From an uncultured Candidatus Saccharibacteria bacterium (GTDB lineage Bacteria; Patescibacteriota; Minisyncoccia; Phycocordibacterales; UBA9973), in assembly GCA_964602465.1 (NCBI GenBank), contig CAZRQQ010000002.1:1-56400 (forward strand): DNA of 56,400 nucleotides, given 5' to 3'. Every line of letters begins with the position of its first letter. Position 1 is the first letter of the stretch. The notes under the pieces are model-generated. The model saw nothing but the letters and a program-made list of their open reading frames with translations. It did no database searches and was not told the DNA's origin. Shown here piece by piece: positions 1 through 56,400 of the stretch. A program made the translations under genes and the position numbers.

Positions 1-582
1 TTGTTTTATCTTCTACTGAACTTTTTGAAACAGTTTTTTCTTGTGTGTATTGTTTGTTCATTTCGAGCAAGCAGTCAAACCCTTACTGACACGTTACATG
101 AAAAAGTACAAACAGCATTTGCCGTGCTCCGGACGTATCCGCAACTGAAACCATATATTTCATATGAGCGGATGTTTATGTACCCCTTGCCCAGTTTCTT
201 GTACGAGACCGATCTCGGTGTATCGTTTTTGTATGGGGTACCGTATGACTTTACTGAAGCAGGAACTATGCTCAACGCAGCAGAAATTACCGAGCCGTCA
301 CGGATAGTAGTACATGCCTCATTTGTACAAAAGGCAACTAGTAAGGTGTTGATAGCGCAACTTTTATGGGCATTCGTGCATGACAAAGAGCGGAGCGACT
401 CACTTCAATCCTTTGAACAGATGCTCCAGACAGAAATCAATACCGCTACGGTAGTGCTTGGCTTCCTCACCTTTGCATATGAGGGGCAAGATATGACTCC
501 TGATGAACGGCAGTACTATAAGGCACTAGTGCACTATAGTGATCAGTTGCACCAAGAACAGCGTGCACTCATGAAATATTGA
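1..582 (+). CDS. hypothetical protein (5' end at window edge, start uncertain)
   Basis: Open frame from position 1 (TTG) to stop at 582. No recognisable domain. Followed by a hairpin terminator. Confidence 0.4.
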   Translation: MFYLLLNFLKQFFLVCIVCSFRASSQTLTDTLHEKVQTAFAVLRTYPQLKPYISYERMFMYPLPSFLYETDLGVSFLYGVPYDFTEAGTMLNAAEITEPSRIVVHASFVQKATSKVLIAQLLWAFVHDKERSDSLQSFEQMLQTEINTATVVLGFLTFAYEGQDMTPDERQYYKALVHYSDQLHQEQRALMKY

Positions 583-599
583 ATATCGCATATTCTCTC

Positions 600-623
600 A
601 AACCCTTTTCAGAGGGTTTTTTA
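600..623 (+). terminator. rho-independent terminator (aaaccct-tttcag-agggttt + T-run)
   Basis: 7-bp perfect stem with 6-nt loop followed by TTTTTTATTT. A nearly identical module recurs at 12532-12560. Confidence 0.6.
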
Positions 624-719
624 TTTGCAAAAACAGACAATATACAGTACGATGGGGGCCTAAGCGGGGAGCGCTTTTTTTATTACTAAATCTCCACCTC
701 TATATAGGTCAATCCATTT

Positions 720-2861: not shown

Positions 2862-2901
2862 GCAAAACGCCTGCCCTGCGAAGCTTTGGCGTAGTGGGGT
2901 G

Positions 2902-2931
2902 GCAGATACAATCATCAAATCAAGAGCGTAA
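2902..2931 (+). repeat. synonymous duplicate of the last 9 codons of fusA (ADTIIKSRA-stop)
   Basis: gca gat aca atc atc aaa tca aga gcg taa encodes the same peptide as fusA 2832-2861. It differs at 10 nt, all synonymous. Confidence 0.7.
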
Positions 2932-2945
2932 TACTCTCACAAAAG

Positions 2946-2967
2946 ATCCCTGAAAGGGGATTTTTTG
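2946..2967 (+). terminator. rho-independent terminator after fusA
   Basis: atccc-tgaaag-gggat hairpin followed by TTTTTT. Confidence 0.6.
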
Positions 2968-2968
2968 A

Positions 2969-2996
2969 TTGACAAAAATATAAAACCTGATACAAT
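2969..2996 (+). promoter_or_regulatory. sigma70-like promoter (TTGACA-16-TACAAT) for cassette ORF 3021
   Basis: Consensus -35 and near-consensus -10 elements. A 23-nt block TTGACAAAAATATAAAA is shared with 10114-10142. Confidence 0.5.
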
Positions 2997-3020
2997 AAAG
3001 CAAAAGCACAAGTAACAATT

Positions 3021-3512
3021 ATGAAGGAAGCAGAATCACTACTGACCCTCCCCAGGGTTATTTTTAACTCGATTGAACGGGTATGGATTACCGTAGAAAT
3101 GTTTGAGCCTGAATTGCTTAAAAACCATATCAGGTTTCAAAAACAAACGATCAACCTTCATGGAACACTATTTACTATTGCAGTATTGGAACAACAGTAC
3201 GCATTTGGAAAAGGTGTTTATGAATGTCAGTCCTTATACGGATTTGAACTATCCAAAGAAGAAAGAACTGCAATGTTGTTTCATTACCATGGTATTAAGG
3301 CAAACACAGAGCGTCCGTTGGTCGATCAATTTAAATTTGAGATCTACAACAATGACGCAAAGTATCAGCCGCTGTATCGTTGTGTTGAAGATCTTGCACG
3401 GCGTGCAGTTCGTAGAATATTATCTACTACTGCTGACATAACTAAGTCAAATGGGGTAATCATTCCGCTTTCTTTATCGGTTAAAGAAAAAAGAGAATTA
3501 GTAGCTGTATAG
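3021..3512 (+). CDS. hypothetical protein (AT-rich cassette between fusA and tuf)
   Basis: 163-aa ORF with its own promoter and terminator. No recognisable domain. Confidence 0.5.
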   Translation: MKEAESLLTLPRVIFNSIERVWITVEMFEPELLKNHIRFQKQTINLHGTLFTIAVLEQQYAFGKGVYECQSLYGFELSKEERTAMLFHYHGIKANTERPLVDQFKFEIYNNDAKYQPLYRCVEDLARRAVRRILSTTADITKSNGVIIPLSLSVKEKRELVAV

Positions 3513-3525
3513 ACAGTTACTACAC

Positions 3526-3560
3526 AGCCAGGTATGCACTAACCATACCTGGCTTTTTTA
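3526..3560 (+). terminator. rho-independent terminator
   Basis: agccaggtatg...catacctggct 11-bp stem followed by TTTTTT. Confidence 0.6.
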
Positions 3561-3588
3561 TTGACAATCGCTTCCCAAATGCTATCAT
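3561..3588 (+). promoter_or_regulatory. promoter TTGACA-16-TATCAT upstream of tuf
   Basis: Consensus -35 immediately after the terminator. 16-nt spacer. Confidence 0.45.
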
Positions 3589-3645
3589 GAGGGACACGCA
3601 TTTTGCGTTGTTTTTGTTTGTTTATTAGCTTAGTTCAATATTTAT

Positions 3646-5285: not shown

Positions 5286-5305
5286 CCTTCGGCTCCATCA
5301 AACAA

Positions 5306-5334
5306 AAAACCTCCCAGATCTGGGAGGTTTTTTG
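5306..5334 (+). terminator. rho-independent terminator after rpsJ
   Basis: aaaacctccca-gatc-tgggaggtttt followed by a T-run. Confidence 0.65.
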
Positions 5335-5344
5335 CTTTAGAAAA

Positions 5345-5767
5345 ATGTTAAGTTTATATCTATACACTACTCAGATGAATAAAAAAGATTATGCAGTTTG
5401 GGGCACTATAAAAACAAATGTTCACAACAACAAAGAGCGACCGTTCTTCCACGAACGTGAAGTGTGGTTCTGCACACTTGGTGAAAATGTTGGATTTGAG
5501 CAAGATGGGAGAGGAGAAAACTACCTACGACCAGTGGTTGTTGTGAGGAAATTTAATAACGCAGTTTGTCTTGTTGTGCCTTTAACCAAAAATCAAAAGA
5601 AAGGAATACATTACTTTTCTTTTTCATATAAAGATGATCTCGTAAGTACTGCCATTCTTTCCCAGGTTCGTCTTATCGATGCAAAGCGTCTTGATTATAA
5701 ATCAGGATTTATTTCAGAAACTGATTTTGAAGCCCTAAAACAAAAACTCAAGCAATTGATTGCCTGA
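5345..5767 (+). CDS. PemK/MazF-fold toxin-like protein (start may be 5375)
   Basis: [31 protein letters not shown]...[13 protein letters not shown]...RLIDAKRL matches the Kid/PemK/MazF motif pattern (RPVL(I/V)V, VVPVTS). No antitoxin ORF is visible upstream. Confidence 0.5.
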
Positions 5768-5956
5768 GTTTTTGACTTTTTACCCCGAAGGGAGGGCCGA
5801 AGCCATTTGTACCAATAGTATATTCCTTCCATTAAAACAAGTCAATTTTCCCCGAAGGGAACGTGGGTAGTCCCAAATGCATATCTAGTATATCAAATTC
5901 CCCGAAAGTGGATTTTTTGTTTCCCCAAAAATTTTGTATAGTACACAAAAACATCT

Positions 5957-6169
5957 ATGCCAACAAAGAGACAGTTGTGGCAAAATTGGGCATCTGAATT
6001 TGAATATTTTAGAGGACAAGATCCCAGGACATATCAACCAAAAGGTCCAGTGTCAATGACGGGAGAAGTAATCGGTACTATCCAGATTAACCCGGCCACT
6101 GGAGATTTGAGGATCATTCCTACTCCTCCTTCCTCAACTGAAGAAGATTCCCAACCAATAAACCCCTAA
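5957..6169 (+). CDS. hypothetical small protein (C-terminus ...SQPINP)
   Basis: 70-aa ORF. Its C-terminus and the downstream ~60 bp are repeated at the next gene's end. Confidence 0.3.
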   Translation: MPTKRQLWQNWASEFEYFRGQDPRTYQPKGPVSMTGEVIGTIQINPATGDLRIIPTPPSSTEEDSQPINP

Positions 6170-6226
6170 CACCGGTTTGTTTTTGCTTTTGGAGAACGGT
6201 GTGCTAGGGTAAGTAAAAAATACACA

Positions 6227-6820
6227 ATGTTCAAATTATTCAAATTACATCAGTACGGTAATGACACGTACTATGCAATCATATGTAGCAACCCACTTTC
6301 AGAGGAGTTACTCCAGAAGCTGAAAGAGGTATTTGAAAAACTATCTTCTCTTTCGCAACAGGAATATGACCATGTATGGTTTAGGGTGTCGGGTTTTTTT
6401 AAAGAATTCACTGACAGCACCTGCAATGGCCTTGTTCATGAGACTTGCTCGCACCCACTCAATGAGGGAGCAAACTTTGATGAGGCAATACGTCCTTGGC
6501 AAAAATATGATTACGTAAACAAAAAGTACGTAGACTGGTATGGACCACTCATGACCAAAGGAGATCAGGATGAAGAGTTCAAAGCCGCGTACGAGTTTTC
6601 ATACCATGCATCTTTTCGGTCGTCACTACTTGCCGCAGGAGTTCCTGAAAAGGATATAGAAAAAAGTATTATCTTTGAGGTGACCGATTGCCGTGACTGC
6701 TACGAAACGAATCCATTTGATTTTGCACAGTGGGTACTAAAACAAACAAAATCGTTGGAATATATCAATGCACTACTTCTACCACCTGCTTCGCAGAGTA
6801 CTGAACCAACAAACCCTTAA
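6227..6820 (+). CDS. hypothetical protein (C-terminus ...STEPTNP)
   Basis: 197-aa ORF. No recognised domain. Confidence 0.45.
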   Translation: MFKLFKLHQYGNDTYYAIICSNPLSEELLQKLKEVFEKLSSLSQQEYDHVWFRVSGFFKEFTDSTCNGLVHETCSHPLNEGANFDEAIRPWQKYDYVNKKYVDWYGPLMTKGDQDEEFKAAYEFSYHASFRSSLLAAGVPEKDIEKSIIFEVTDCRDCYETNPFDFAQWVLKQTKSLEYINALLLPPASQSTEPTNP

Positions 6821-6872
6821 CACCGGTTTGTTTTTTGTTACAGAAATGGTAGGGTAAGGAAAACTCATTACA

Positions 6873-7394
6873 ATGAAAGATATATTAAAGAAATTACGTT
6901 TTCCGATGCTTATATCGGCACTACTCATCTGGCCGCTGTTTGATGACTTCTTTACCAATACATCGCCTGAACTTATAGACTTTGCCCAATCAAATCGTGG
7001 TATAGCACTACGAATGTTGCTTGCAACGATAGGTTTTTTGATCGCATGTTGGAGGCTGCTAGGTATAACCTCAAAGGTCACTCGAGTATTCCCCCGATAC
7101 CCTGCGTATCGGATAGGGTGGGATGATTTTACAGTAGTGATTATTCTTTTAGGATTCGCACTACTTGTTGCCTCACTGGTAGTAGTAGTGGCCCTACTTA
7201 AAGATGTATATTTCAATACCCATCCAGGAATAGTAATAGTTAAAATTGTATACCCTTGGGCAGTAGGCAGCTGCTATGTTCTTATTGGTATTTTTGAGTA
7301 TAAGTATCCATTACTTCTCAAACAGTACGAACGACCAAATATAAGCAGAAGAGAAATCGATAAGATCCTCAAATATAAAAGCATTTTGCGGTAA
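6873..7394 (+). CDS. hypothetical membrane protein
   Basis: 173 aa with several hydrophobic helices. Confidence 0.45.
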   Translation: MKDILKKLRFPMLISALLIWPLFDDFFTNTSPELIDFAQSNRGIALRMLLATIGFLIACWRLLGITSKVTRVFPRYPAYRIGWDDFTVVIILLGFALLVASLVVVVALLKDVYFNTHPGIVIVKIVYPWAVGSCYVLIGIFEYKYPLLLKQYERPNISRREIDKILKYKSILR

Positions 7395-7407
7395 CTGAGA
7401 AAGATAT

Positions 7408-7431
7408 ATCCCCTGAAACGGGGATTTTTTA
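7408..7431 (+). terminator. rho-independent terminator
   Basis: atcccc-tgaaac-ggggat followed by TTTTTT. Confidence 0.6.
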
Positions 7432-7438
7432 TACTCAC

Positions 7439-7466
7439 TTGCGCAATTTTTGATCCCGTGTATAAT
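7439..7466 (+). promoter_or_regulatory. promoter TTGCGC-16-TATAAT restarting the S10 operon at rplC
   Basis: Consensus -10 TATAAT. Located between the cassette terminator and rplC. Confidence 0.45.
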
Positions 7467-7522
7467 CTCGGGACATTTAAAAGATCCCAAAGATCCTAAA
7501 GAATGGTCCAATACCCGCCCAG

Positions 7523-9211: not shown

Positions 9212-10048
9212 ATGAAATCCTATAAACCTACAACCCAATCACGACGCAACACGCTCACGATCGAGTATCGTAAGTTCCTCACGCGTTCAAAGCCTGAGAA
9301 ATCTCTCACCAAGGGCAAGAAGCGCGCAGTCGGCCGCAACAACCTCGGTCGCATCACGACTCGTCACAAAGGAGGAGGCAACAAGCGCCTCTACCGTCTC
9401 GTCGACTTTTTGTACAACAAGCACAACATCCCTGCGCGCATTGCGTCAGTAGAATACGATCCAAACCGCTCTGCATTCATCGGTCTTGCGATCTACCGCG
9501 ATGGTGAGAAGCGCTACGTCGTCCTTCCAAAGGGGATCCAGGTCGGCACCACATTTACGGTCTCCGAAACTGCTCCTGTCGAACCCGGCAACCGTCTCCC
9601 GCTCAAGGCGATCCCTGCAGGTACCTTTGTATACAACATCGAGCTCAAGCCAGGTGCAGGTGCCAAGATCGTGCGCTCTGCAGGATCATTTGCTCAGGTT
9701 GTCGCGCAGCAAGACGGCTTCACCCAGCTCAAGCTTCCTTCTACTGAAATCCGCCGCGTCGCAGAACTCTGCTGGGCAACAGTTGGTACCGTCTCAAATG
9801 ATGAGAACAAACTTGTGAAGTATGGTAAGGCTGGTCGCTCAAGATGGAAAGGCATCCGTCCTACCGTCCGTGGTACTGCTATGAACCCAGTTGATCACCC
9901 ATACGGTGGTGGTGAAGGTGTACAAGGCCGTGGTACCAAGCGTCCCAAGACCCTCTGGGGTAAGGTTACTGGTGGCCGCAAGACACGCACCCCGAAGAAA
10001 TACTCCAACAAAGACGTCGTTACTCGACGCAAGGTTGGGAAGAAATAA
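9212..10048 (+). CDS. rplB: 50S ribosomal protein L2
   Basis: GRNN.GRITTRHKGGG and GGGEG motifs. Confidence 0.95.
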   Translation: MKSYKPTTQSRRNTLTIEYRKFLTRSKPEKSLTKGKKRAVGRNNLGRITTRHKGGGNKRLYRLVDFLYNKHNIPARIASVEYDPNRSAFIGLAIYRDGEKRYVVLPKGIQVGTTFTVSETAPVEPGNRLPLKAIPAGTFVYNIELKPGAGAKIVRSAGSFAQVVAQQDGFTQLKLPSTEIRRVAELCWATVGTVSNDENKLVKYGKAGRSRWKGIRPTVRGTAMNPVDHPYGGGEGVQGRGTKRPKTLWGKVTGGRKTRTPKKYSNKDVVTRRKVGKK

Positions 10049-10072
10049 TCTCCTCAAATACGAACTCACAAA

Positions 10073-10098
10073 AACCGCCCAAAAGGGTGGTTTTTGCT
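10073..10098 (+). terminator. rho-independent terminator after rplB
   Basis: aaccgccc-aaaa-gggtggtt followed by a T-run. Confidence 0.6.
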
Positions 10099-10113
10099 GC
10101 AATGGTTTTGATA

Positions 10114-10142
10114 TTGACAAAAATATAAAATTATGATATAAG
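10114..10142 (+). promoter_or_regulatory. promoter TTGACA-17-TATAAG; shares the TTGACAAAAATATAAAA block with 2969-2996
   Basis: Direct sequence identity of a 23-nt block to the fusA-tuf cassette promoter. Confidence 0.5.
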
Positions 10143-10184: not shown

Positions 10185-10778
10185 ATGATGACAGTATCAA
10201 GACAAACGGAAGAGTGGTTGAAACAAAATCAATTAACACTCTACAACCTCCTTAGTCTCGCCTTTGTGGCTCGAAGAACTTATGAGGATATGATGACAAA
10301 ACAAGCTCGGTGGCTCCCATCTTTACACCGACTTTTCATGGTAACTGAACTCGAAGAGTTTAGGCTTTCCGATGAAGAGTCTCAGAAGTACAACGATGAT
10401 AAGCAGACAAAGGCAAAAGTCCTTACTGATGAACTCATCGCAAGCTATCTGATAAAAGAGTGGAAGCAAACGGGCAAGTTGCCTGAAGAAAAGTATCTCC
10501 TTGTTACTGGAGAAAGAGCATCAAAGGATAAAACAGTCCTTACTGATCTCTTGATTAGAAAAATCAAAGGACAATCTGAAGATATTCCTATGGCTAAAAA
10601 TAATCAATCTACCAGCATCAACGGGGCCATTATTCCAACAGGTATTCTTAGTATTGCGACTACTGAAATAAAAACAGTACTGGAGTCTAAGAGTGGTGAT
10701 ATAGATCAATACCGAAAAACAAATGCAAAGGAATTAAAAAACCTTAGCATCATTCGTAGGAAATACTGCCACTATTAA
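10185..10778 (+). CDS. hypothetical protein (cassette in rplB-rpsS gap)
   Basis: 197-aa ORF, AT-rich. No recognisable domain. Confidence 0.5.
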   Translation: MMTVSRQTEEWLKQNQLTLYNLLSLAFVARRTYEDMMTKQARWLPSLHRLFMVTELEEFRLSDEESQKYNDDKQTKAKVLTDELIASYLIKEWKQTGKLPEEKYLLVTGERASKDKTVLTDLLIRKIKGQSEDIPMAKNNQSTSINGAIIPTGILSIATTEIKTVLESKSGDIDQYRKTNAKELKNLSIIRRKYCHY

Positions 10779-10803
10779 GGCGGGCGGTGAAGGATCTGCA
10801 ACT

Positions 10804-11451
10804 GTGAATATTACAGGAACATTTGGGCTCCATGCCATACAGGTACAAGTCAATACGGTACCAACCGCTCCTTTTATTTCAGGTCCAACATATGTTAAAC
10901 CTGGAGATACGTATTCTTTCGAGCTTCAGCGGCATACTCGTGACGATGTATATTGGGAAATTGAAAAAAACCCAACAGAAGTCGTTGGTATTCCAGATCT
11001 GCATGACAAAAAGAAGTATTCTGTAAAGGTTGAACCCGAGTGTAAGGATTGTGCTGTGACATTATATGTCAGGTTAAAAACCAACCGTTCGCTGGTCGCT
11101 CAAAAAAATATCAATATATTGGAAGCAGGTTCAAAAAAACAGCCTCCGATTATAAAGATAGGAAAGAAAGAGTATAGAATATCGAGCGGTGTGTATTTTC
11201 CTGAAACAGTTGCACAGGTTGATTATTTGTTCAACGAGTCGCAGGTATTGGAAATAGTTATCAATCCAATCCATCCCAGAATAAAAGACATGGGGTATAT
11301 GCAGTCCATGGACCATATATTGGCTGCAATAGCGAATGTTGCCATGATTGATCAGGTGTATGACAAACTGATTAATCCTAGTGAAGCACAAGGAATTGCC
11401 GAGAATTTTGTCGCTGTGATGAAAGACAGCTTGTTGAATAAAAAACAATAG
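10804..11451 (+). CDS. hypothetical protein (GTG start, possibly co-transcribed with 10185)
   Basis: 215-aa ORF directly downstream. No recognisable domain. Confidence 0.45.
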   Translation: MNITGTFGLHAIQVQVNTVPTAPFISGPTYVKPGDTYSFELQRHTRDDVYWEIEKNPTEVVGIPDLHDKKKYSVKVEPECKDCAVTLYVRLKTNRSLVAQKNINILEAGSKKQPPIIKIGKKEYRISSGVYFPETVAQVDYLFNESQVLEIVINPIHPRIKDMGYMQSMDHILAAIANVAMIDQVYDKLINPSEAQGIAENFVAVMKDSLLNKKQ

Positions 11452-11466
11452 ATTGCTCTTTACATC

Positions 11467-11494
11467 GAACCGGTTTCTACCGGTTCTTTTTATT
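11467..11494 (+). terminator. rho-independent terminator (gaaccggt-ttct-accggttc + T-run)
   Basis: 8-bp stem followed by TTTTTATTTT. Confidence 0.6.
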
Positions 11495-11522
11495 TTGACA
11501 AACCAATCCAGAGGAGTAGGAT
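11495..11522 (+). promoter_or_regulatory. cassette promoter TTGACA-16-TAGGAT
   Basis: Same architecture as 11980-12007 and 12560-12587. Confidence 0.45.
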
Positions 11523-11540
11523 AGGGAAAAAATTACAACT

Positions 11541-11942
11541 ATGAATATATCTGTTCATCCCCATGCGGGAAATCACACAGTCGACTCAGCGACGATCGTT
11601 GTGACAGGCAAAGATTTCAATATTATATTTAGAATCAACCCTCGAGGTGCCGTCGAAGTACAAAATGCTACAGATGTTTCTGCCACGATGCCATTTAAGG
11701 TACAACCAGATGGAAATATCGCACTTGATCCTAACTCTCGTGACCACGTAACTATCAAAGCCGGATTGGTGGGCATGGAAGGTGGGCCTGAGCTGAGTAT
11801 GACTGCACAAACATTGATGCAGCGACCTGTACATGTGATTACAAGTATAGGAAAGGGTACTCCGGTACTGAAAGTACGTGATGGAAGCGGTTGTTGGAAG
11901 CATGAAAACGTACTGGAATGGGCGCAAGAAGAGCGACAGTGA
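11541..11942 (+). CDS. hypothetical protein
   Basis: 133-aa ORF bracketed by a promoter and terminator. Confidence 0.45.
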   Translation: MNISVHPHAGNHTVDSATIVVTGKDFNIIFRINPRGAVEVQNATDVSATMPFKVQPDGNIALDPNSRDHVTIKAGLVGMEGGPELSMTAQTLMQRPVHVITSIGKGTPVLKVRDGSGCWKHENVLEWAQEERQ

Positions 11943-11949
11943 TACATCA

Positions 11950-11978
11950 AACTACTGAATAGTTCAGTAGTTTTTTAT
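11950..11978 (+). terminator. rho-independent terminator (aactactgaa-tag-ttcagtagtt + T-run)
   Basis: 10-bp perfect stem followed by TTTTTTATTTT. Confidence 0.65.
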
Positions 11979-11979
11979 T

Positions 11980-12007
11980 TTGACAAACTGGCGAGAGTGG
12001 GTAGTAT
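11980..12007 (+). promoter_or_regulatory. cassette promoter TTGACA-16-TAGTAT
   Basis: The TTG that the ORF track uses as the start of 11980..12525 is the -35 hexamer. Confidence 0.5.
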
Positions 12008-12027
12008 GGAGGAAAACATACCTTCAT

Positions 12028-12525
12028 ATGAAACAAAAAAGAAAAGTGCGTGCTGAAACATATCCAGCGAATGTGTTGGAAACCATCAACAAAAAGTTGA
12101 TCGACCGTATCTATACGGAAAAAAATAAATTTCTGGTAACACGTATAACAGATGCTTGTCTGGCTGCTTCGGCGAGTGATCTAAAGACACTCTTTGGGAG
12201 GCTTCCTGGTGCATATGACGGAGAGTTGATACATATCCTGTGCAATAAGCCTGGATCCAATCCTACTGGATTTCATATGGTCACCAAAACTCCCAAAAGG
12301 TTTGAGTTGCGGCGAGGTACCGAACTTATTGTCATACTTACTTCACCAAAAGAAATCTACAGTACTCATCATGAACCTGCTACAGCAAACGATATTGTTA
12401 TCAAAAAACAAACACGGTTCAAAAATCTGTTGAAGGAGCAGGGTATCAATCGAAGTAACTTCACCAGTTACGGCATCTTTTTGCTCGAACTGTGTTTTCA
12501 AACCAGGTCTTCCAAAATCGCATAA
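12028..12525 (+). CDS. hypothetical protein, paralog A (start revised to the ATG at 12028)
   Basis: In-frame ATG after a GGAGG. The internal block ACLAASASDLKTLFGRLPGAYDGELIHILC is similar to 12605 ALCLVAPPKELNKMFNGLRTYSASELAHILC. Confidence 0.5.
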   Translation: MKQKRKVRAETYPANVLETINKKLIDRIYTEKNKFLVTRITDACLAASASDLKTLFGRLPGAYDGELIHILCNKPGSNPTGFHMVTKTPKRFELRRGTELIVILTSPKEIYSTHHEPATANDIVIKKQTRFKNLLKEQGINRSNFTSYGIFLLELCFQTRSSKIA

Positions 12526-12531
12526 GTACAT

Positions 12532-12560
12532 AAACCCTTTTCAGTAGGGTTTATTTTTTT
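12532..12560 (+). terminator. rho-independent terminator (aaaccct-tttcagt-agggttt + T-run)
   Basis: Near-identical to the terminator at 600-623. Confidence 0.65.
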
Positions 12561-12587
12561 TGACAAAAAAGCCTAGGTGAGTAGTAT
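12560..12587 (+). promoter_or_regulatory. cassette promoter TTGACA-16-TAGTAT
   Basis: Third copy of the promoter architecture. Confidence 0.5.
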
Positions 12588-12604
12588 GAAGAAAAATTAA
12601 AAAC

Positions 12605-13159
12605 ATGAAAAGACCATATAAGTTTTTGCAGGACAAAGATTTCTCCTGTAGCGACATCACACCATCGTATGTTGATGCTATATACAAAGAAAGAGGTGAT
12701 GGTAATCTTGCTCAATACATCACAGCGCTATGTCTTGTTGCTCCACCGAAAGAACTCAATAAGATGTTTAATGGTTTACGAACGTATTCTGCAAGTGAGC
12801 TTGCGCACATTCTGTGTGCTGAAACTGCTTCGCGTGCGGTGAATAAATTTACAATACAAAACCGACAAGCAACTCAATTTGATCTATTTCGGAACGGCAG
12901 TCTCTTGAGAAGGTTTAAACAAAGGTGTCTCCACATTCCTACGTTTAATCAAAAAAAATCTGAACAAGAAATTGCACCCGAAGAATTTCAGAGCCTTCTT
13001 GTGCAACACGGTATTACTGAGAGTATTCTTGCTGAATGCTTGATTAAGCCAGTACCACCTCCGCCATATCTGTACAATATTCCCGAATGGAATGCTGTAG
13101 TTACTCCGGTGTACCGACCACTACGGCACATAGATCATCTCAAAGCCCTTTCAGCGTAA
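12605..13159 (+). CDS. hypothetical protein, paralog B of 12028..12525
   Basis: Shared motif ...ELxHILC... with the upstream gene. 184 aa. Confidence 0.5.
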   Translation: MKRPYKFLQDKDFSCSDITPSYVDAIYKERGDGNLAQYITALCLVAPPKELNKMFNGLRTYSASELAHILCAETASRAVNKFTIQNRQATQFDLFRNGSLLRRFKQRCLHIPTFNQKKSEQEIAPEEFQSLLVQHGITESILAECLIKPVPPPPYLYNIPEWNAVVTPVYRPLRHIDHLKALSA

Positions 13160-13187
13160 TGAAGGGGCTTTTGTTATACTTAGCGGT

Positions 13188-13580
13188 ATGGAAAAACTAT
13201 CAGAGCGAAAGCGGTTTTCGATCATTGCACGGGCGCGGAGTTTCCGGCATGCGCTTCGGGGGATTGGGATCATATTCAAGACGCAGCACAATGCGTGGAT
13301 CCATGGGGTTGCAGCGGTAGTAGTTATCGGACTTGGACTCTGGCTCAAGATTAGTGCAGGGGAATGGGCGGGGATCCTCCTATCGGTGACGAGTGTGCTT
13401 GCCGCAGAAGCATTCAATACTGCCGTAGAGATAGACATCGATCTCACGAGCCCTAATTATCACCCTTATGCGCGGGACACCAAGGACGTCGCCTCTGCTG
13501 CAGTGCTCATTACTGCTCTCGGAGCAGCGCTGGTTGGGATTGTGGTGTTTGTACCCAAGCTTTTCGTGCTATTTTCATAA
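13188..13580 (+). CDS. dgkA: diacylglycerol kinase / undecaprenol kinase family protein
   Basis: 130 aa with three TM helices. Conserved EAFNTAVE and SAAVLI motifs typical of DgkA. Confidence 0.7.
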   Translation: MEKLSERKRFSIIARARSFRHALRGIGIIFKTQHNAWIHGVAAVVVIGLGLWLKISAGEWAGILLSVTSVLAAEAFNTAVEIDIDLTSPNYHPYARDTKDVASAAVLITALGAALVGIVVFVPKLFVLFS

Positions 13581-13636: not shown

Positions 13637-13900
13637 ATGTTTTACGTGTATTGTTTGGAAAGTAAGGTTCGAGAACGCGAACTGTATTTTGGATGCACTA
13701 CCGATTTGAAACGTAGATTGATTGAACATAATACTGGACTTAACAAATCCACAAAACGCTACATACCGTGGAAGCTTATTTACTATGAAGCCTGCCTATC
13801 GGAGGTTGATGCATACCGAAGGGAGGAATACCTAAAAACCAGTACCGGAAGGAGGATGTTTTCAAGGAGAATTAGTGGGTATTTGAGGGGCCGGATTTGA
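13637..13900 (+). CDS. GIY-YIG nuclease family protein (stand-alone, UPF0213-like)
   Basis: FYVYCL...YFGCTTDLKRRLIEHN is the GIY-YIG motif. 87 aa. Confidence 0.8.
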   Translation: MFYVYCLESKVRERELYFGCTTDLKRRLIEHNTGLNKSTKRYIPWKLIYYEACLSEVDAYRREEYLKTSTGRRMFSRRISGYLRGRI

Positions 13901-13977
13901 CCCGGAAGTGAGCCTTGGCATAGTACTCCGTACAGACGCGGCTTTGCCGCAATGCCAAGATCTACTTCCGGGTTGAC
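13900..13977 (+). repeat. structured 78-nt repeat element, copy 1 (hairpin module ending in -35 TTGAC)
   Basis: cccggaagtgagccttggcat...atgccaagatctacttccggg is a long imperfect inverted repeat enclosing gtac-tcc-gtac and gcggc-ttt-gccgc hairpins. About 95% identical to 20055-20134. Confidence 0.8.
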
Positions 13978-17514: not shown

Positions 17515-20055
17515 GTGAAATCTTTTAGTAGTTTTTTTAGTACACACAAACGAACACTTGCTGCACTTTTGTTTGGCCTCGCGTTTTCGGCGACTGTTGC
17601 GTTTGCAGTACCACCGAGTACTGAGTACAGTCCAGGCGAGACACTTGATCCAAACTGTGCGCCAGGAGATACCAACTGCGCGGTCATTCCCACCGCGTCT
17701 GCGATCGAAGATGGTGCAGTAGAAATCGCTGACTTTTCGGCAAGCGGCACACCGAGTGCAAGTACGTTTTTGCGTGGAGATAACACATGGGCAACTGTTT
17801 CGGGGAGCGGTACAGTCACGTCATTTGCATTTACCAACGGTGGCGGATTCACTGGCAACGTCAGCAACGCCACCTCAACTCCTACGCTCTCGCTTACACT
17901 TCAAGATGCTGTAGCTGATGGCTCAACTAAGGGTGCTGCAGCATTTACCGCAGCAGATTTTAATGCATCAAGTGGGCTCATTTCTATAGACTATACCAAC
18001 GGTCAGGCAGCATCAGGTTCGACCAAGGGATTCCTTACTTCTGCTGACTGGACGACGTTTAACGGTAAGGAAAGTGCACTCACGTTTTCTATTGGACTTA
18101 CACGTACTACTAATACAATCACCGTTAACACTACACAAAACATTGCCAAACTTTCAAACCTTACTTCAAACGGCTTTATTAAGACATCGGGGAGTGACGG
18201 TACGCTCAGTGTTGATACCAGTACCTATCTTACAGGTAACGAGGCTATTACTCTTTCGGGGGATATATCTGGGAGTGGTACTACCACAATCACAACTACG
18301 ATTGGATCTGGTAAAGTCACGAACACTATGCTTGCTGGCTCGATCACTGCAGCAAAACTCGTAGGAACCGATATTGCAACAGTGGGTACTATCGGTACGG
18401 GTACGTGGCAAGGCACGGTCGTGGGTGCAACCTACGGAGGTACTGGTGTAAACAATGGGTCAAACACGATAACACTTGCGGGCAATCTCGTGACGACTGG
18501 GGCGTTTAATACTACGTTTGCAGCAAGCGCGACGGGGACCTATACTCTCCCTAGTGCGACTTCGACGCTTTTGGCAAACAATCTCGGGATTAGTGGCGGG
18601 TCAACACTGGTCGGAGGAACAGGATCTGGTGAAAACCTCACACTTTCTTCAACGAGTAATGCAACTAAAGGTAAAATCATCTTCGGATCTGCCTCAGCGT
18701 ATGACCAAGTCAACGATCGATTTGGAATTGCACAGACCACCCCATTAGCAAGACTTCATGTGCAGCGTGATGCAATAGGTGCCACCCAAGATGATTCATA
18801 CGGTATCTTGTTGCAAAACTCAACGGCAGCAGCAGCGGGCGCACAGCAGTATTCACCATCGATCGTATTTGCAGGAAATGGATGGAAATCAAGTGCAACT
18901 GCAGCGAGTCAAGATGTACGGTTTCGTATTTATAATAGTCCTGTGCAAGGTGCGGGCTCCGCATCCGGGTTGTTGAATTTTGAGTCAGCACTTAATGGTG
19001 GTGCATACACCACGCTCATGACACTATCAAGTGCACAAGCATTGAGCTTAAACAGTGCCGGAACGATTTTTATTGGATCAGGTCTGGCTTTGACTAATGT
19101 TACCGCTCAAGTACCAACTGTATTTGGTGGCACTGCGGTGAGCTCATCACTTACACTTAAATCAACGAGCGGTGTCGGATCTTCGGACTTCATCCGTTTT
19201 CAGGTCGGCAACAACGGTGCAACTGAAGCAATGCGTATCATCACTTCTGGATTTGTGGGTATTGCCAATACTGCTCCTGGAGTCGCACTCCACATCGGTT
19301 CGTCGTCAACCACTGACGCTACAACACTTCTTCGTCTCCAAGACTCAAACTCTACCTGTAACTTCACTGCAGATTCTGGTGCGCCAACGTGTGGATCTGA
19401 CCGCACCCTCAAGAAAGATATCGAATCCATGGATAATGCCGACCTCCTTGCTCGGGTATCTGCACTCAATCCAGTGACCTATCGATGGCTTACTGATACT
19501 GATGATGCAAAACTCCAGCATGGGTTCATTGCACAAGAAGTAGAAGAACAATTCCCGGAGCTTGTGACCGAGAATGTCTGGGGTGATGGCACCATGCGCA
19601 AATTCCTCAATATTGGCGGTCTCATGCCGTATGCGATCGGTGCGATCAAGCAAATGAATCTCCAGATCGTTGGCATTGCAGATCTAGGCACAACCAACAC
19701 TTGGCGTGATAGCTTACTTGCATGGTTTGGAAATGCAGGCAACGGCATAGAGTCTTTCTTTAGTAAGAAGGTTACGACGAGCGAGCTTTGTGTAGGGGAC
19801 GAGACTGATCAGGTTTGTGTCACCAAAGATCAGCTTCGAACACTCTTGCAGCAGGGGGGAAGTGCATCAGTTGCGCCAATAGTGATTCCAGATCCAGTGC
19901 CAGAGGAGGCTACCGGAGAGACGCCTGAGGAGACACCGGTCGAAGAGACTGTGACCCCAGAACCAGAGGCTATAGAACCTACACCAGAGCCAGAACCGGC
20001 TCCAGAACCCACAGCCCCTGAGGCTCCGGCAGAAGCTCCTGCTCTTACCGAATAA
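17515..20055 (+). CDS. secreted tail-fibre-like surface protein with C-terminal intramolecular chaperone (peptidase S74-type) domain and Pro/Glu/Thr-rich tail
   Basis: N-terminal signal/anchor MKSF...AFSATVAFA. Long Gly/Ser/Thr-rich repetitive body. C-terminal TCGSDRTLKKDIESM...LNPVTYRW....HGFIAQEVEEQFPELV matches the endosialidase/tail-fibre autoprocessing chaperone domain. PEPEPAPEP tail. Confidence 0.7.
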   Translation: MKSFSSFFSTHKRTLAALLFGLAFSATVAFAVPPSTEYSPGETLDPNCAPGDTNCAVIPTASAIEDGAVEIADFSASGTPSASTFLRGDNTWATVSGSGTVTSFAFTNGGGFTGNVSNATSTPTLSLTLQDAVADGSTKGAAAFTAADFNASSGLISIDYTNGQAASGSTKGFLTSADWTTFNGKESALTFSIGLTRTTNTITVNTTQNIAKLSNLTSNGFIKTSGSDGTLSVDTSTYLTGNEAITLSGDISGSGTTTITTTIGSGKVTNTMLAGSITAAKLVGTDIATVGTIGTGTWQGTVVGATYGGTGVNNGSNTITLAGNLVTTGAFNTTFAASATGTYTLPSATSTLLANNLGISGGSTLVGGTGSGENLTLSSTSNATKGKIIFGSASAYDQVNDRFGIAQTTPLARLHVQRDAIGATQDDSYGILLQNSTAAAAGAQQYSPSIVFAGNGWKSSATAASQDVRFRIYNSPVQGAGSASGLLNFESALNGGAYTTLMTLSSAQALSLNSAGTIFIGSGLALTNVTAQVPTVFGGTAVSSSLTLKSTSGVGSSDFIRFQVGNNGATEAMRIITSGFVGIANTAPGVALHIGSSSTTDATTLLRLQDSNSTCNFTADSGAPTCGSDRTLKKDIESMDNADLLARVSALNPVTYRWLTDTDDAKLQHGFIAQEVEEQFPELVTENVWGDGTMRKFLNIGGLMPYAIGAIKQMNLQIVGIADLGTTNTWRDSLLAWFGNAGNGIESFFSKKVTTSELCVGDETDQVCVTKDQLRTLLQQGGSASVAPIVIPDPVPEEATGETPEETPVEETVTPEPEAIEPTPEPEPAPEPTAPEAPAEAPALTE

Positions 20056-20134
20056 CCCGGAAGTGAGCCTTGTGGCATAGTACTCCGTACAGACGCGGCT
20101 TCGTCGCAATGCCAAGATCTACTTCCGGGTTGAC
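20055..20134 (+). repeat. structured 80-nt repeat element, copy 2
   Basis: Direct repeat of 13900-13977 with a 2-nt insertion. The inner hairpin change gccgc to gtcgc keeps pairing through a G·U. Confidence 0.8.
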
Positions 20135-28748: not shown

Positions 28749-28857
28749 GTATGTATGTTTTAACTACTAATCTACAAAATGCCTGCGGATCGACTGTTTC
28801 TACGGAGCTCTTTTGTGCAGTGATTCTGTCAGAAATAATACAAAATGTCAAATAATT

Positions 28858-29251
28858 GTGGAGATGGGGGTATCGAAACCCCGTGTAGTGTGAGTGGATA
28901 GCTAGTTCTACATGTGTAGCGTCATGTGATTGTTTGAGTGAATATTCTCAACACGAGCAAAATGAATATTCACCGAGCTCTTACTTGTTTGGTGCGGGGC
29001 AAAAGCGTGCCTTGCTGCCTATCCCGATGAGTGTTGCCGCGATCTATCTATCGGAAGTCGATAGGTGCGACACCAGATTGACCTAAAGCTTAGGCGAATG
29101 CTGGAGCGAAGCCAAATGCGTTAGCAAATGGAGACTTCACCTTAGCGATGCTGTTGCCAGTTATCGTGTGTGAACGAATGGTGACGGTGTTGCGTTCATA
29201 CCCGACATGCGTAGCTGTCTCAGGCTCATACTATCGAAACCTGTCATCCCC
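28858..29251 (-). ncRNA. ssrA: tmRNA (transfer-messenger RNA)
   Basis: Minus-strand 5' end GGGGAUGACAGGUUUCGAUAG. 3' end ACGGGGUUUCGAUACCCCCAUCUCCAC with the acceptor stem pairing to the 5' end. Internal frame ...GCU AAC GCA UUU GGC UUC GCU CCA GCA UUC GCC UAA. Adjacent to smpB. Confidence 0.75.
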
Positions 29252-35899: not shown

Positions 35900-36034
35900 G
35901 CCGATGATGTATATAATCTTTTATATCATCCACCCTTAGCTCCCCGCCTGCATCAGCTACGCGAAGCATTGCGGGCAGGAGTTGGTAGAGCGCCGAGCTT
36001 ACCGGCGAAGCGAGTGGTATACAGACAAACGAGT

Positions 36035-36108
36035 GGGAGTATAGCTCAGTTGGTTAGAGCACGGAGCTTATACCTCCGCGGTCGATGGTTCGAGTCCATC
36101 TACTCCCA
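36035..36108 (+). tRNA. tRNA-Ile (anticodon UAU)
   Basis: Cloverleaf with acceptor GGGAGTA/TACTCCC, D-arm GCTC..GAGC, anticodon stem CGGAG/CTCCG, loop CTTATAC, T-arm GATGG-TTCGAGT-CCATC. Discriminator A. Confidence 0.7.
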
Positions 36109-36188
36109 CCCGTTTGAATGTGATATCCGAGCGATGCCGGCTCCAAAGGATGACCTCGGTGGTCCAGGCTTTTGTCCATGCACACCCA

Positions 36189-56121: not shown

Positions 56122-56400
56122 AAGATACGACCATTGTAATCCAGAATCAAATTTTAAAATAGGCCATTAATATCTATGCAAAACATATATTTTACTGCAT
56201 GGTCGCGCTCCTACTTAACAAAATCAGTACCCTGCGATAGGGTGTGCAGAATGGTATCTTTTGAGGTATCATTGATTGACAACTAAATAAGCAATAAGAG
56301 GCCTAACCCTTGGGAACACAATGTTTGCAAGGTATGGTCGTAAATCGCGACAAACGTAAAGAACCTATCATTAGGGCGTTTGTCGCGTTATATCTGGAAA

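What the first reader, a model, noticed from the sequence alone, without database searches (positions are those of the whole stretch)
11462..13180. Three tandem cassettes with identical promoter-gene-terminator architecture, the last two encoding paralogs
Each unit has a hairpin terminator with T-run, then TTGACA-N16-TAG(T/G)AT, then an ORF (11541, 12028, 12605), then the next hairpin terminator. The proteins from 12028 and 12605 share the block A(C/L)L.A....(L/E)...F..L..Y...EL.HILC. That points to tandem duplication and divergence of a small protein family, a pattern typical of rapidly evolving specificity or immunity-type genes.
Basis: seen in the sequence. Interest (0 to 1): 0.6.

Follow-up and report, generated by a model that had tools for sequence, protein, structure and literature searches.

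The report
Self-contained gene cassettes in ribosomal operon
Three small genes, each with its own promoter and terminator, sit in a variable insertion hotspot inside the ribosomal-protein operon of an uncultured Patescibacteria (CPR) bacterium; two of them belong to a rare, fast-evolving protein family of unknown function that is always found next to the same lipid-kinase gene.

Summary
Three consecutive terminator hairpin / T-run / TTGACA-N16-TAG(G/T)AT / ORF units lie at 11467-13171. ORFs D (12028) and E (12605) are true homologues (BLASTP E=2e-8); ORF C (11541) is an unrelated strict ORFan.

The interpretation needs revision. The units are part of a 3.1-kb low-GC block of five ORFans between rplB and a diacylglycerol-kinase gene (DagK) in the S10 operon of a Paceibacteria-type MAG. 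In about 40 related genomes the order rplB-[gap]-DagK-rpsS is conserved, but the gap runs from 64 bp to 6.4 kb and holds unrelated cargo. So this is an accessory-gene hotspot.

The fused terminator-promoter junction is the clade's usual packaging for stand-alone genes, not something special to these three. D and E belong to a tiny family: 17 representatives among 1.84 billion proteins, no Pfam, PDB or viral-structure match, and a confidently predicted four-helix plus three-strand domain. The family member lies directly upstream of DagK in 12 of 13 lineages; the window alone has two copies. D and E are not sisters (0/200 bootstraps), so this is not recent in-situ duplication, and no toxin partner or array exists. 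Closest analogues are phage morons and PeSL cassettes. The function of D/E remains unknown.

The parts
9212..10048 (+). rplB (ribosomal protein L2), upstream anchor of the hotspot
   Evidence: Pfam Ribosomal_L2_N and Ribosomal_L2_C, E=4e-31 and 4e-50. Conserved anchor in about 40 related loci.
10069..10142 (+). rplB terminator hairpin (10069-10096) plus promoter-like site; first junction of the low-GC block
   Evidence: Hairpin -18.7 kcal/mol, z=-4.9. TTGATA-N18-TATGAT / TATTGACAAA. The same CCGCCC-GAAA-GGGTGG hairpin type follows rplB in L010, L018, L019 and L022.
10185..11451 (+). ORFs A (10185-10778, 197 aa) and B (10804-11451, 215 aa): two ORFans sharing one transcription unit
   Evidence: No Pfam, PHROG, PADLOC or NCBIfam match. 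No tblastn match in any related locus. GC3 0.37 against 0.57 for rplB.
11458..11540 (+). Junction 1: TCTTTACAT + hairpin 11467-11486 + T-run + -35 at 11495-11500 + -10 TAGGAT at 11517-11522 + 18-nt leader region
   Evidence: Almost the same junction precedes family member P0007 in L088 and P0005 in L087.
11541..11942 (+). ORF C, 133 aa, strict ORFan
   Evidence: Only a self-hit among 5.8 billion proteins. No family match. Single-sequence AF2 model is low confidence, pLDDT 51, beta-rich. The case that it is a gene rests on the exact promoter/terminator framing and on GC3.
11943..12027 (+). Junction 2: TACAT + hairpin 11949-11973 + T-run + -35 at 11980-11985 + -10 TAGTAT at 12002-12007
   Evidence: -11.3 kcal/mol, z=-5.95.
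12028..12525 (+). ORF D, 165 aa, family member that groups loosely with P0004/P0005
   Evidence: BLASTP against E gives E=2e-8. It is database protein P0002. Grouping with P0004/P0005 has weak support, 56/200. The TTG at 11980 listed by the ORF finder lies inside the promoter, so ATG 12028 is the likely start.
12526..12604 (+). Junction 3: TACAT + hairpin 12530-12554 + T-run + -35 at 12560-12565 + -10 TAGTAT at 12582-12587
   Evidence: -10.1 kcal/mol, z=-3.7. Its hairpin region is 73% identical to the terminator at 582-626.
12605..13159 (+). ORF E, 184 aa, family member closest to P0003 (E-type), in the DagK-proximal slot
   Evidence: AF2 model with the family alignment has pLDDT above 90 for residues 10-110: helices 20-28, 34-45, 48-57, 60-73 and strands 82-88, 91-96, 99-105. 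ATG 12605 is supported by alignment with P0003.
13142..13180 (+). Terminator hairpin overlapping E's stop codon (13142-13171), then a TATACT box (13175-13180) 7 nt before the DagK ATG
   Evidence: Hairpin -17.9 kcal/mol, z=-4.5. TATACT at 6-7 nt before the DagK-type ATG is also seen in L003, L005, L007, L008, L091 and L094.
13188..13580 (+). DagK (prokaryotic diacylglycerol/undecaprenol kinase family), downstream anchor of the hotspot and constant neighbour of the D/E family
   Evidence: Pfam DAGK_prokar, E=4e-32. Synteny.

Best explanation
The three cassettes are autonomous, moron-like transcription units stacked in a hypervariable accessory-gene hotspot. The hotspot lies between rplB and DagK inside the S10 ribosomal-protein operon of a Paceibacteria (CPR/Patescibacteria) bacterium. 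Each unit ends in an intrinsic terminator whose T-run runs straight into the -35 box of the next sigma70-type promoter. The -10 box lies 17-20 nt before the ATG, so each gene would be made as its own short-leader mRNA. This would keep read-through from the strongly expressed ribosomal operon out of the cargo, and cargo transcription out of downstream genes. Ribosomal-protein transcription appears to restart from a separate promoter at 13973. This composite junction is the clade's general way of packaging stand-alone genes. Because its sequence is conserved while the flanking genes differ, it probably also acts as a patch of homology for swapping cassettes, as PeSLs do in T4-like phages. The highly conserved flanks (rplB, rpsS) act as recombination anchors, as in SAR11 HVR2. 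D and E are two old, diverged lineages of a clade-restricted, fast-evolving family of small soluble proteins with an N-terminal four-helix plus three-strand domain that matches no known fold. One member is fixed immediately upstream of DagK in this clade, and this genome holds a second, divergent copy one cassette further upstream. Shown: the anatomy, the homology, the hotspot, the synteny with DagK and the non-sister relationship. Inferred: promoter and terminator activity, junction-mediated shuffling, and any function. My best guess for D/E is a non-enzymatic binding or modulator protein under diversifying pressure (phage, host or strain conflict), possibly acting on or with DagK. I put that at about 0.25.
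For: Anatomy. Non-randomness. Low GC of the block: 0.39-0.41 against 0.49-0.53 in the flanks, and GC3 0.32-0.39 against 0.54-0.57. Hotspot: rplW-rplB-[gap]-DagK-rpsS-rplV-rpsC is conserved in about 40 Paceibacteria loci, with gaps of 64-6387 bp, all of lower GC than their flanks. Cargo is unrelated between lineages: helicases of ResIII/SNF2/Helicase_C_2 type, an NYN nuclease, a GDSL lipase, a peptidoglycan-binding protein, a GT2 glycosyltransferase with a polysaccharide deacetylase, a GHKL ATPase, and many ORFans. The junction is clade-wide: 79 strict hits in 1.29 Mb of loci, about 75 of them in Paceibacteria loci and nearly all co-directional, with only 3-4 loose hits in the Bacteroidota loci. 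The same ~46-nt junction core (TCTTTACATCGAACCGGTTTC..CCGGTTC..TTTTGACAAA, about 91% identical) precedes ORF C in the window, P0007 in L088 and P0005 in L087, with unrelated sequence upstream. L096 and L088 are 99.65% identical up to the junction edge; then the family member and the 5' part of DagK are replaced, and identity downstream is 93-96%. Family: 17 representatives at E<1e-3 among 1.84 billion proteins, with a conserved core I-T..ID.IY..C..LF.RL..ELA.ILC..F..F.LFR.G. The family member is directly upstream of DagK in the window, L003, L005/6, L007, L008, L009, L010, L088-90, L094 and L095-98, with a 3-nt gap in L088. D+E are sisters in 0/200 bootstraps and E+P0003 in 200/200. [quoted passage not shown]
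Confidence: 0.65

Rival explanations
1. One reading: D and E arose by local tandem duplication and diverged as specificity or immunity-type proteins (for example orphan immunity genes against a polymorphic toxin or bacteriocin), and copy number varies among strains.
For: D and E are adjacent homologues with near-identical junctions. The family diverges far faster than its neighbours. The proteins are small and soluble with no enzymatic signature. A PemK toxin gene lies elsewhere in the same supercluster.
Against: D and E are never sisters in bootstrap trees, and E's nearest relative is in another genome. All 12 other lineages examined have a single copy, and no arrays were found. No toxin, bacteriocin or secretion gene is adjacent. 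In L010 the family member is the only gene between rplB and DagK. No PADLOC or Pfam immunity family matches.
Confidence: 0.12
2. The low-GC block is a remnant of a phage or integrative mobile element, so the units are literally phage morons or early genes, inserted at the 3' end of rplB.
For: Low GC, ORFan content and moron-like architecture. Other mobile-looking genes interrupt the same supercluster: PemK, GIY-YIG and a tail-fibre-type Peptidase_S74 protein. In L096 and L088 a 4-kb module is flanked by 118-nt direct repeats of the rplB 3' end, an att-like footprint.
Against: No PHROG match for any of the five ORFs. No integrase, and no flanking repeats of 25 nt or more around the window's block. 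The promoters are the host clade's own consensus, also used upstream of tuf and other core genes. The DagK-proximal family member is vertically conserved in the clade.
Confidence: 0.12
3. The D/E family is a dedicated partner or regulator of DagK (undecaprenol/diacylglycerol kinase), and the cassette architecture is incidental.
For: The family member is directly upstream of DagK in 12 of 13 lineages. In L088-90 only 3 nt separate the two genes, which suggests co-transcription.
Against: In the window a strong hairpin separates E from DagK, and DagK has its own -10 box. Most Paceibacteria have DagK at this site without any family member, and unrelated ORFans fill the slot in L014, L016, L019 and L020. 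The L088 DagK is only 47% identical to the window's yet still has a family member beside it. That fits either positional inheritance or co-transfer.
Confidence: 0.15
4. The hairpins are integron-like recombination sites (attC) and the units are integron cassettes.
For: Serial ORF + hairpin units, ORFan content, all in one orientation.
Against: The hairpins are 20-25 nt perfect stems followed by T-runs, which are classic intrinsic terminators. They are not 57-141-nt imperfect attC sites with R''/L''-L'/R' boxes. Each unit has its own promoter, whereas integron cassettes are generally promoterless. No integrase lies next to the block.
Confidence: 0.02

Closest known systems
PeSLs (promoter-early stem-loop cassettes) of T4-like phages (Arbiol et al. 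2010, PMC2839356; Comeau et al. 2014, PMC4122927)
   Same: A composite intergenic element that joins a stem-loop terminator, an AT-rich tract and a strong sigma70-type promoter. It flanks single ORFans clustered in hyperplastic regions between conserved core modules. The element is conserved while the flanked genes differ between relatives.
   Different: This is a cellular CPR genome, inside the S10 operon, not a phage. Here the stem-loop always precedes the -35 box, which is only one of the five PeSL sub-classes. No GGGG/CCCC stem preference is seen. Recombination between the elements, and mini-circles, have not been shown here.
Morons of lambdoid phages (a gene with its own promoter and terminator inserted between conserved genes; described in PMC2839356)
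   Same: A single gene bracketed by its own promoter and terminator, with deviant base composition, dropped between genes of a conserved co-oriented cluster.
   Different: Not in a prophage. The regulatory flanks here are conserved in sequence and belong to the host clade's own consensus.
Hypervariable islands anchored by conserved informational genes, e.g. [quoted passage not shown]
   Same: A streamlined genome in which variable cargo lies between highly conserved informational genes that can act as homologous-recombination anchors. The cargo includes cell-surface enzymes in some relatives (the GT2 + deacetylase module in L088/L096).
   Different: Much smaller (0.06-6.4 kb against 48 kb). 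It interrupts a protein-coding ribosomal operon. The cargo here is ORFans packaged as individual transcription units.
Orphan immunity-gene arrays next to polymorphic toxin or bacteriocin loci (recalled from general knowledge, not tested against a reference set)
   Same: Small, fast-diverging paralogues in tandem.
   Different: No toxin partner, no array beyond two copies, single copy in the other genomes, and the two copies are not recent duplicates.

Membership tests
PeSL cassettes (T4-like phages) | Composite intergenic element with a stem-loop terminator and a sigma70-like promoter in one ~100-nt unit | tested here: met
   three units of 79-85 nt from stop codon to ATG, each with hairpin, T-run, TTGACA-N16-TAG(G/T)AT.
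PeSL cassettes (T4-like phages) | Flank ORFans concentrated in hyperplastic regions between conserved core genes | tested here: met
   Five ORFans between rplB and DagK. The gap is variable in about 40 relatives.
PeSL cassettes (T4-like phages) | Reside in a T4-like phage genome and use the early-promoter class | tested here: not met
   The context is a cellular Paceibacteria contig carrying the full str/S10/spc gene set, tRNAs and tmRNA. No PHROG hits.
PeSL cassettes (T4-like phages) | Recombination between elements generates insertions, deletions or replacements of the flanked genes | tested here: inconclusive
   The same junction precedes three different genes in three genomes, and L088's breakpoint falls at the junction edge. 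However, junction similarity also fits a shared promoter consensus, and the L096/L097 indel is intragenic.
PeSL cassettes (T4-like phages) | Promoter and terminator activity demonstrated; mini-circles detectable | not testable with these tools
   Needs reporter fusions, transcript end mapping or inverse PCR.
Morons | A single gene with its own promoter and terminator, inserted between two genes of a conserved cluster, with atypical base composition | tested here: met
Morons | Located in a (pro)phage genome | tested here: not met
   No phage genes flank the block.
Integron gene cassettes | attC sites (57-141 nt imperfect palindromes), promoterless cassettes, and an adjacent IntI integrase with attI | tested here: not met
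   20-25-nt perfect hairpins with T-runs, a promoter in every unit, and no integrase among the neighbouring ORFs scanned. The whole 56-kb window was not scanned for integrases.
Toxin-immunity / orphan immunity arrays | An adjacent toxin or bacteriocin gene, and variable multi-copy arrays of paralogues | tested here: not met
   No toxin domain in A-E or in the neighbours. Single copy in all 12 other lineages. D and E are not sisters.
Hypervariable island anchored by conserved informational genes (SAR11 HVR2 type) | Variable gene content at a fixed site between conserved anchors, with lower GC | tested here: met
Hypervariable island anchored by conserved informational genes (SAR11 HVR2 type) | Allele replacement by homologous recombination in the flanks | tested here: inconclusive
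   L096 against L088: 99.65% identity upstream and 93-96% downstream of a replaced segment. This is a single case.
Any known protein family or fold, for D/E | Significant sequence or structure match | tested here: not met

The most novel reading that the evidence does not exclude
The fused terminator-promoter junctions are genuine cellular counterparts of phage PeSLs. On this reading they are conserved regulatory modules that double as recombination sites, letting genome-reduced CPR bacteria insert, swap and test ORFan genes as pre-insulated units inside their ribosomal operons. The D/E family would then be a gene family born and maintained at this site, with a new fold, acting in a conflict (phage, host or strain) or as a lineage-specific modulator of DagK.
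Probability: 0.2. Interest if true: 0.7.

Novelty: new variant of a known kind. Interest (0 to 1): 0.42.

Why it matters
Ribosomal-protein operons are among the most conserved gene arrangements in bacteria and are used as phylogenetic markers for CPR genomes. Here the S10 operon of a whole Paceibacteria clade carries a fixed non-ribosomal gene (DagK) and, beside it, a site that collects unrelated accessory genes. That affects binning and annotation, because these regions fragment assemblies: most family members sit on contigs of 1-3 kb. It also gives a defined locus at which to study how streamlined, episymbiotic bacteria acquire and test new genes. The self-insulating cassette design suggests how foreign genes can be tolerated inside an essential, highly expressed operon. 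The D/E family is a small, confidently folded, unannotated domain that could be characterised experimentally.

Tried and rejected
1. A k-mer homology search with E, C and the family alignment returned only self-hits or four clusters. Only the exhaustive HMMER search found the family.
2. The search for related loci with the family alignment failed because no stretch was conserved enough. I anchored on DagK instead.
3. Population variation could not be used: L001 and L002 have one mismatch each to the window.
5. The single-sequence AF2 model of ORF C was uninformative, pLDDT 51.
6. I tested whether the single ORFs in the DagK-upstream slot of more distant relatives (L014, L016, L019, L020, L025, L036) are remote family members. 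They are not: the best E is 0.056 against a set of only 11 proteins, so none is significant, and they are unrelated to each other.
7. I tested whether A, B or C recur in related loci or elsewhere in the window. They do not.
8. Rfam gives nothing in the region at the gathering threshold. At permissive thresholds there are only sub-threshold chance hits: STnc40 at 30 bits against a gathering score of 55, and miRNA hairpins.
9. Nucleic-acid binding inferred from charge was rejected, since the family's pI runs from 5.2 to 10.1.
10. Literature searches for CPR/Patescibacteria ribosomal-operon insertions, or for DagK in the S10 operon, found no description in the held library.
Full report
OBSERVATION. 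The region reads as the first-stage reader described it. Hairpins followed by T-runs lie at 11467-11486, 11949-11973, 12530-12554 and 13142-13171. TTGACA-N16-TAGGAT/TAGTAT/TAGTAT sites start at 11495, 11980 and 12560. The ORFs are 11541-11942 (C, 133 aa), 12028-12525 (D, 165 aa) and 12605-13159 (E, 184 aa). The hairpins are stable, at -10.1 to -17.9 kcal/mol, and none of 200 dinucleotide shuffles folds as well. The exact pattern TTGACA-N16-TAnnAT occurs six times in the 56.4-kb window, all on the + strand, against 0.14 expected. The composite hairpin+promoter occurs five times against 0.64 expected.

The three junctions align well beyond the hexamers. They share TACAT, a hairpin whose stem differs in each, TTTT(A/T)TTTTGACAAA, G.GTAG(G/T)AT, a purine-rich G.AG.AAAA tract, and an ATG 17-20 nt after the -10 box. 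D and E are homologous over 126 residues (27% identity, E=2e-8). C is unrelated to either.

CONTEXT. The units are not isolated. They are the last three of five ORFs (A 10185-10778, B 10804-11451, then C, D, E) that form a 3.1-kb low-GC block. Its GC is 0.39-0.41 against 0.49-0.53 in the flanks, and its GC3 is 0.32-0.39 against 0.54-0.57. The block sits between rplB (9212-10048) and a DagK-family lipid-kinase gene (13188-13580). A small GIY-YIG gene follows, and then rpsS-rplV-rpsC-rplP. A fourth junction of the same type follows rplB and starts the A-B unit. None of A-E matches Pfam, PHROGs, PADLOC or NCBIfam. The window equals a whole metagenomic contig, and two other assemblies hold virtually identical sequence. 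Record titles of the closest relatives place the organism in Patescibacteria/CPR, of Paceibacteria/Nomurabacteria type.

THE LOCUS IS A HOTSPOT. Using DagK as an anchor, I fetched 78 loci from species-representative genomes. In about 40 Paceibacteria loci the order rplW-rplB-[gap]-DagK-rpsS-rplV-rpsC is conserved. The rplB-to-DagK gap ranges from 64 bp to 6.4 kb and always has lower GC than its flanks.

The cargo is unrelated between lineages:
- ResIII, SNF2 and DinG-type helicases
- an NYN nuclease
- a GDSL lipase and a peptidoglycan-binding protein
- a GT2 glycosyltransferase with a polysaccharide deacetylase
- a GHKL ATPase
- a different pair of tandem membrane-protein paralogues
- many ORFans

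Some genomes also carry inserts between DagK and rpsS. In the window itself, other breaks in the translation-gene supercluster hold ORFans, a PemK toxin and a tail-fibre-type Peptidase_S74 protein. So the finding lies in an accessory-gene hotspot inside the S10 operon. [quoted passage not shown]

THE ARCHITECTURE IS THE CLADE'S STANDARD PACKAGING. A strict scan required a hairpin of at least 6 bp ending within 14 nt of TTGAC[AT]-N15-18-TAnnnT. It finds 79 sites in 1.29 Mb of fetched loci. About 75 are in Paceibacteria loci and nearly all are co-directional with the ribosomal genes, whereas the Bacteroidota loci give only 3-4 loose hits. Most sites continue with a purine-rich RRAGAAAAA tract and an ATG 17-20 nt after the -10 box, which implies leaders of about 11-13 nt.

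In the window the five strict sites all flank ORFan insertions: 2969 and 3561 around the ORFan between fusA and tuf, plus the three of the finding. So the 'identical promoter-gene-terminator architecture' is real. It reflects how this lineage packages stand-alone genes, and it is concentrated about ten-fold in the island.

THE D/E FAMILY. The k-mer-indexed search found only self-hits. An exhaustive HMMER search with a D+E profile against 1.84 billion representatives found 17 proteins at E<1e-3, including D and E themselves. They are 100-220 aa long and share a core: I-T..ID.IY ... C ... LF.RL ... ELA(N/H)ILC ... F ... F.L(F/Y)R.G. Many also have a C-terminal F(K/Q)sLL motif. No member hits Pfam, and the profile hits nothing in the PDB.

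Genomic context is very consistent. The family member lies immediately upstream of DagK in every lineage where downstream sequence is available, except one. These are the window, L003, L005/6, L007, L008, L009, L010, L088-90 (only 3 nt apart), L094 and L095-98. In L091 a 64-aa ORF intervenes. Among the 78 species representatives, only the two closest (DagK 82-84% identical) have the family. More distant relatives have unrelated ORFans in the same slot. Family members are 27-46% identical where DagK is 78-84% and L2 is 82-88% identical, so the family evolves several-fold faster than its neighbours.

DUPLICATION? In NJ trees D and E are never sisters (0/200 bootstraps). E pairs with P0003 from another genome in 200/200. 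D groups loosely with P0004/P0005 (56/200), with which it shares subtype motifs: GF...FEL.RGTE, against KKFT...F.LFRNG in the E group. Members of different subtypes occupy the DagK-proximal slot in different genomes. All other lineages carry one copy. The window's pair is therefore either an old duplication retained only here or, more simply, the capture of a second, diverged allele as a cassette. It is not recent in-situ duplication and divergence, and no arrays exist.

SHUFFLING AT JUNCTIONS. The junction upstream of C has the core TCTTTACATCGAACCGGTTTCTACCGGTTC-TTTTTATTTTGACAAA. It recurs at about 91% identity upstream of P0007 in L088 and, slightly more diverged, upstream of P0005 in L087. 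The sequence 5' of it is unrelated in the three genomes: the 3' end of B, a duplicated 83-nt fragment of the rplB 3' end, and another ORF.

L096 and L088 are 99.65% identical from rplB through a GT2/deacetylase module, up to exactly that junction edge. Then the family member and the 5' part of DagK differ, and identity falls to 93-96% downstream. In L096 the module is bracketed by 118-nt direct repeats of the rplB 3' end.

These patterns are what PeSL-type modular shuffling and flank-anchored allele replacement would produce (PMC2839356, PMC4122927). They are not proof. Junction similarity between genomes (42-46 of 62) is about as high as within the window (45-46 of 62), as a shared promoter consensus would also give. 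The only clean strain-level indel seen (L096 vs L097, 1916 bp) lies inside coding sequence.

MECHANISM. The anatomy is shown; the activity is inferred.
- Each hairpin plus T-run should terminate the upstream transcript.
- The T-run doubles as an AT-rich upstream element for the abutting -35 box.
- Transcription should start about 7 nt after TAG(G/T)AT and give a short-leader monocistronic mRNA.

The result would be three insulated units that neither receive read-through from the ribosomal operon nor pass transcription on. After E, a hairpin overlapping the stop codon is followed by TATACT 7 nt before the DagK ATG. That arrangement is conserved in six relatives and suggests a leaderless DagK mRNA. 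Ribosomal-protein transcription appears to restart at TTGACA-N16-TACTAT (13973).

For D/E I can only propose a non-enzymatic binding or modulator role under diversifying pressure, possibly connected with DagK. Nothing tested points to a specific activity.

COMPARISON AND VERDICT. The units work like phage morons and PeSL cassettes, but they are not members of those classes because the genome is cellular. They are not integron cassettes: the hairpins are short terminators, each unit has its own promoter, and no integrase was found nearby. They also do not meet the criteria of toxin-immunity arrays. The locus resembles hypervariable islands anchored by conserved informational genes.

I rate it a new variant of a known kind: a chromosomal ORFan-cassette hotspot embedded in the S10 operon of CPR bacteria, with an unannotated, clade-restricted protein family attached to DagK. 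Interest is moderate.

Noticed in passing
window 13900-13974 and 20055-20134; L009 10670-10747: A ~75-80-nt repeat (95% identical copies) folds into a very stable branched hairpin: -39.8 kcal/mol, z=-6.3 for the first copy and -28.6 kcal/mol for the second. Each copy lies just after an insertion in the ribosomal cluster (after the GIY-YIG gene; after the 846-aa Peptidase_S74 ORF), and its 3' end supplies the TTGAC -35 box of the promoter that restarts ribosomal genes (rpsS; rpsN). It also follows the GIY-YIG gene in L009. No Rfam family matches. It could be an insulator/terminator, an element end or a regulatory RNA.
   Followed up: partly
window 13175-13188; L003, L005, L007, L008, L091, L094: DagK has a TATACT box 6-7 nt before its ATG in the window and in six relatives, with no Shine-Dalgarno sequence. 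This suggests a leaderless DagK mRNA.
   Followed up: partly
about 40 Paceibacteria loci (L009-L062, L084, L085): A DagK-family lipid-kinase gene is a fixed resident of the S10 operon, between rplB and rpsS, across a whole Paceibacteria/Nomurabacteria clade. This is a non-ribosomal gene conserved inside the operon.
   Followed up: yes
L096 987-1104 and 5122-5239; L088 7949-8031: In relatives, a 4-kb GT2 glycosyltransferase + polysaccharide deacetylase + 323-aa module is bracketed by direct repeats (83-118 nt, 90-95% identical) of the rplB 3' end. This is an att-like footprint of insertion at the end of rplB, with no recognisable integrase.
   Followed up: partly
L096 5792|5793 against L097 4760-6675: Two strains that are 99.8% identical differ by a clean 1916-bp deletion that fuses a 212-aa ORF to a 672-aa GHKL-ATPase ORF. 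This is gene decay within the island.
   Followed up: yes
window 2862-3645, 5286-7522, 17515-20134: Other breaks in the translation-gene supercluster carry cargo. There is an ORFan (3021-3512) between fusA and tuf. A PemK toxin (5345-5767) plus ORFs 5959-6168, 6227-6820 and 6873-7394 lie between rpsJ and rplC. An 846-aa protein with a Peptidase_S74 (tail-fibre chaperone) domain precedes rpsN, and the Peptidase_S74 gene is at the same site in L095 and L098.
   Followed up: partly
window 6153-6184 and 6804-6835: A 32-nt direct repeat (94% identical) covers the last codons (…NP*) and the terminator-like sequence of two adjacent ORFs, so it brackets ORF 6227-6820. This is the kind of flanking repeat expected for cassette duplication or exchange.
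   Followed up: no
window 582-626 against 12514-12558: The terminator after ORF D is 73% identical over 45 nt to the terminator after the partial ORF at the start of the window (AAACCCTTTTCAG(T)AGGGTTT).
   Followed up: no
L030, L031, L041, L042 (rplB-DagK gap): A different pair of tandem paralogous membrane proteins (210-218 aa and 149-151 aa, 30-38% identical to each other) fills the same gap in a more distant sub-clade.
   Followed up: partly
window 28856-29251 (- strand); 56300-56400 (+): Rfam finds a full-length tmRNA (86 bits) that ARAGORN did not report, and a LOOT RNA cut off by the end of the window.
   Followed up: no
window 36034-36111: A tRNA-Ile with anticodon TAT is encoded; this is uncommon in bacteria.
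   Followed up: no
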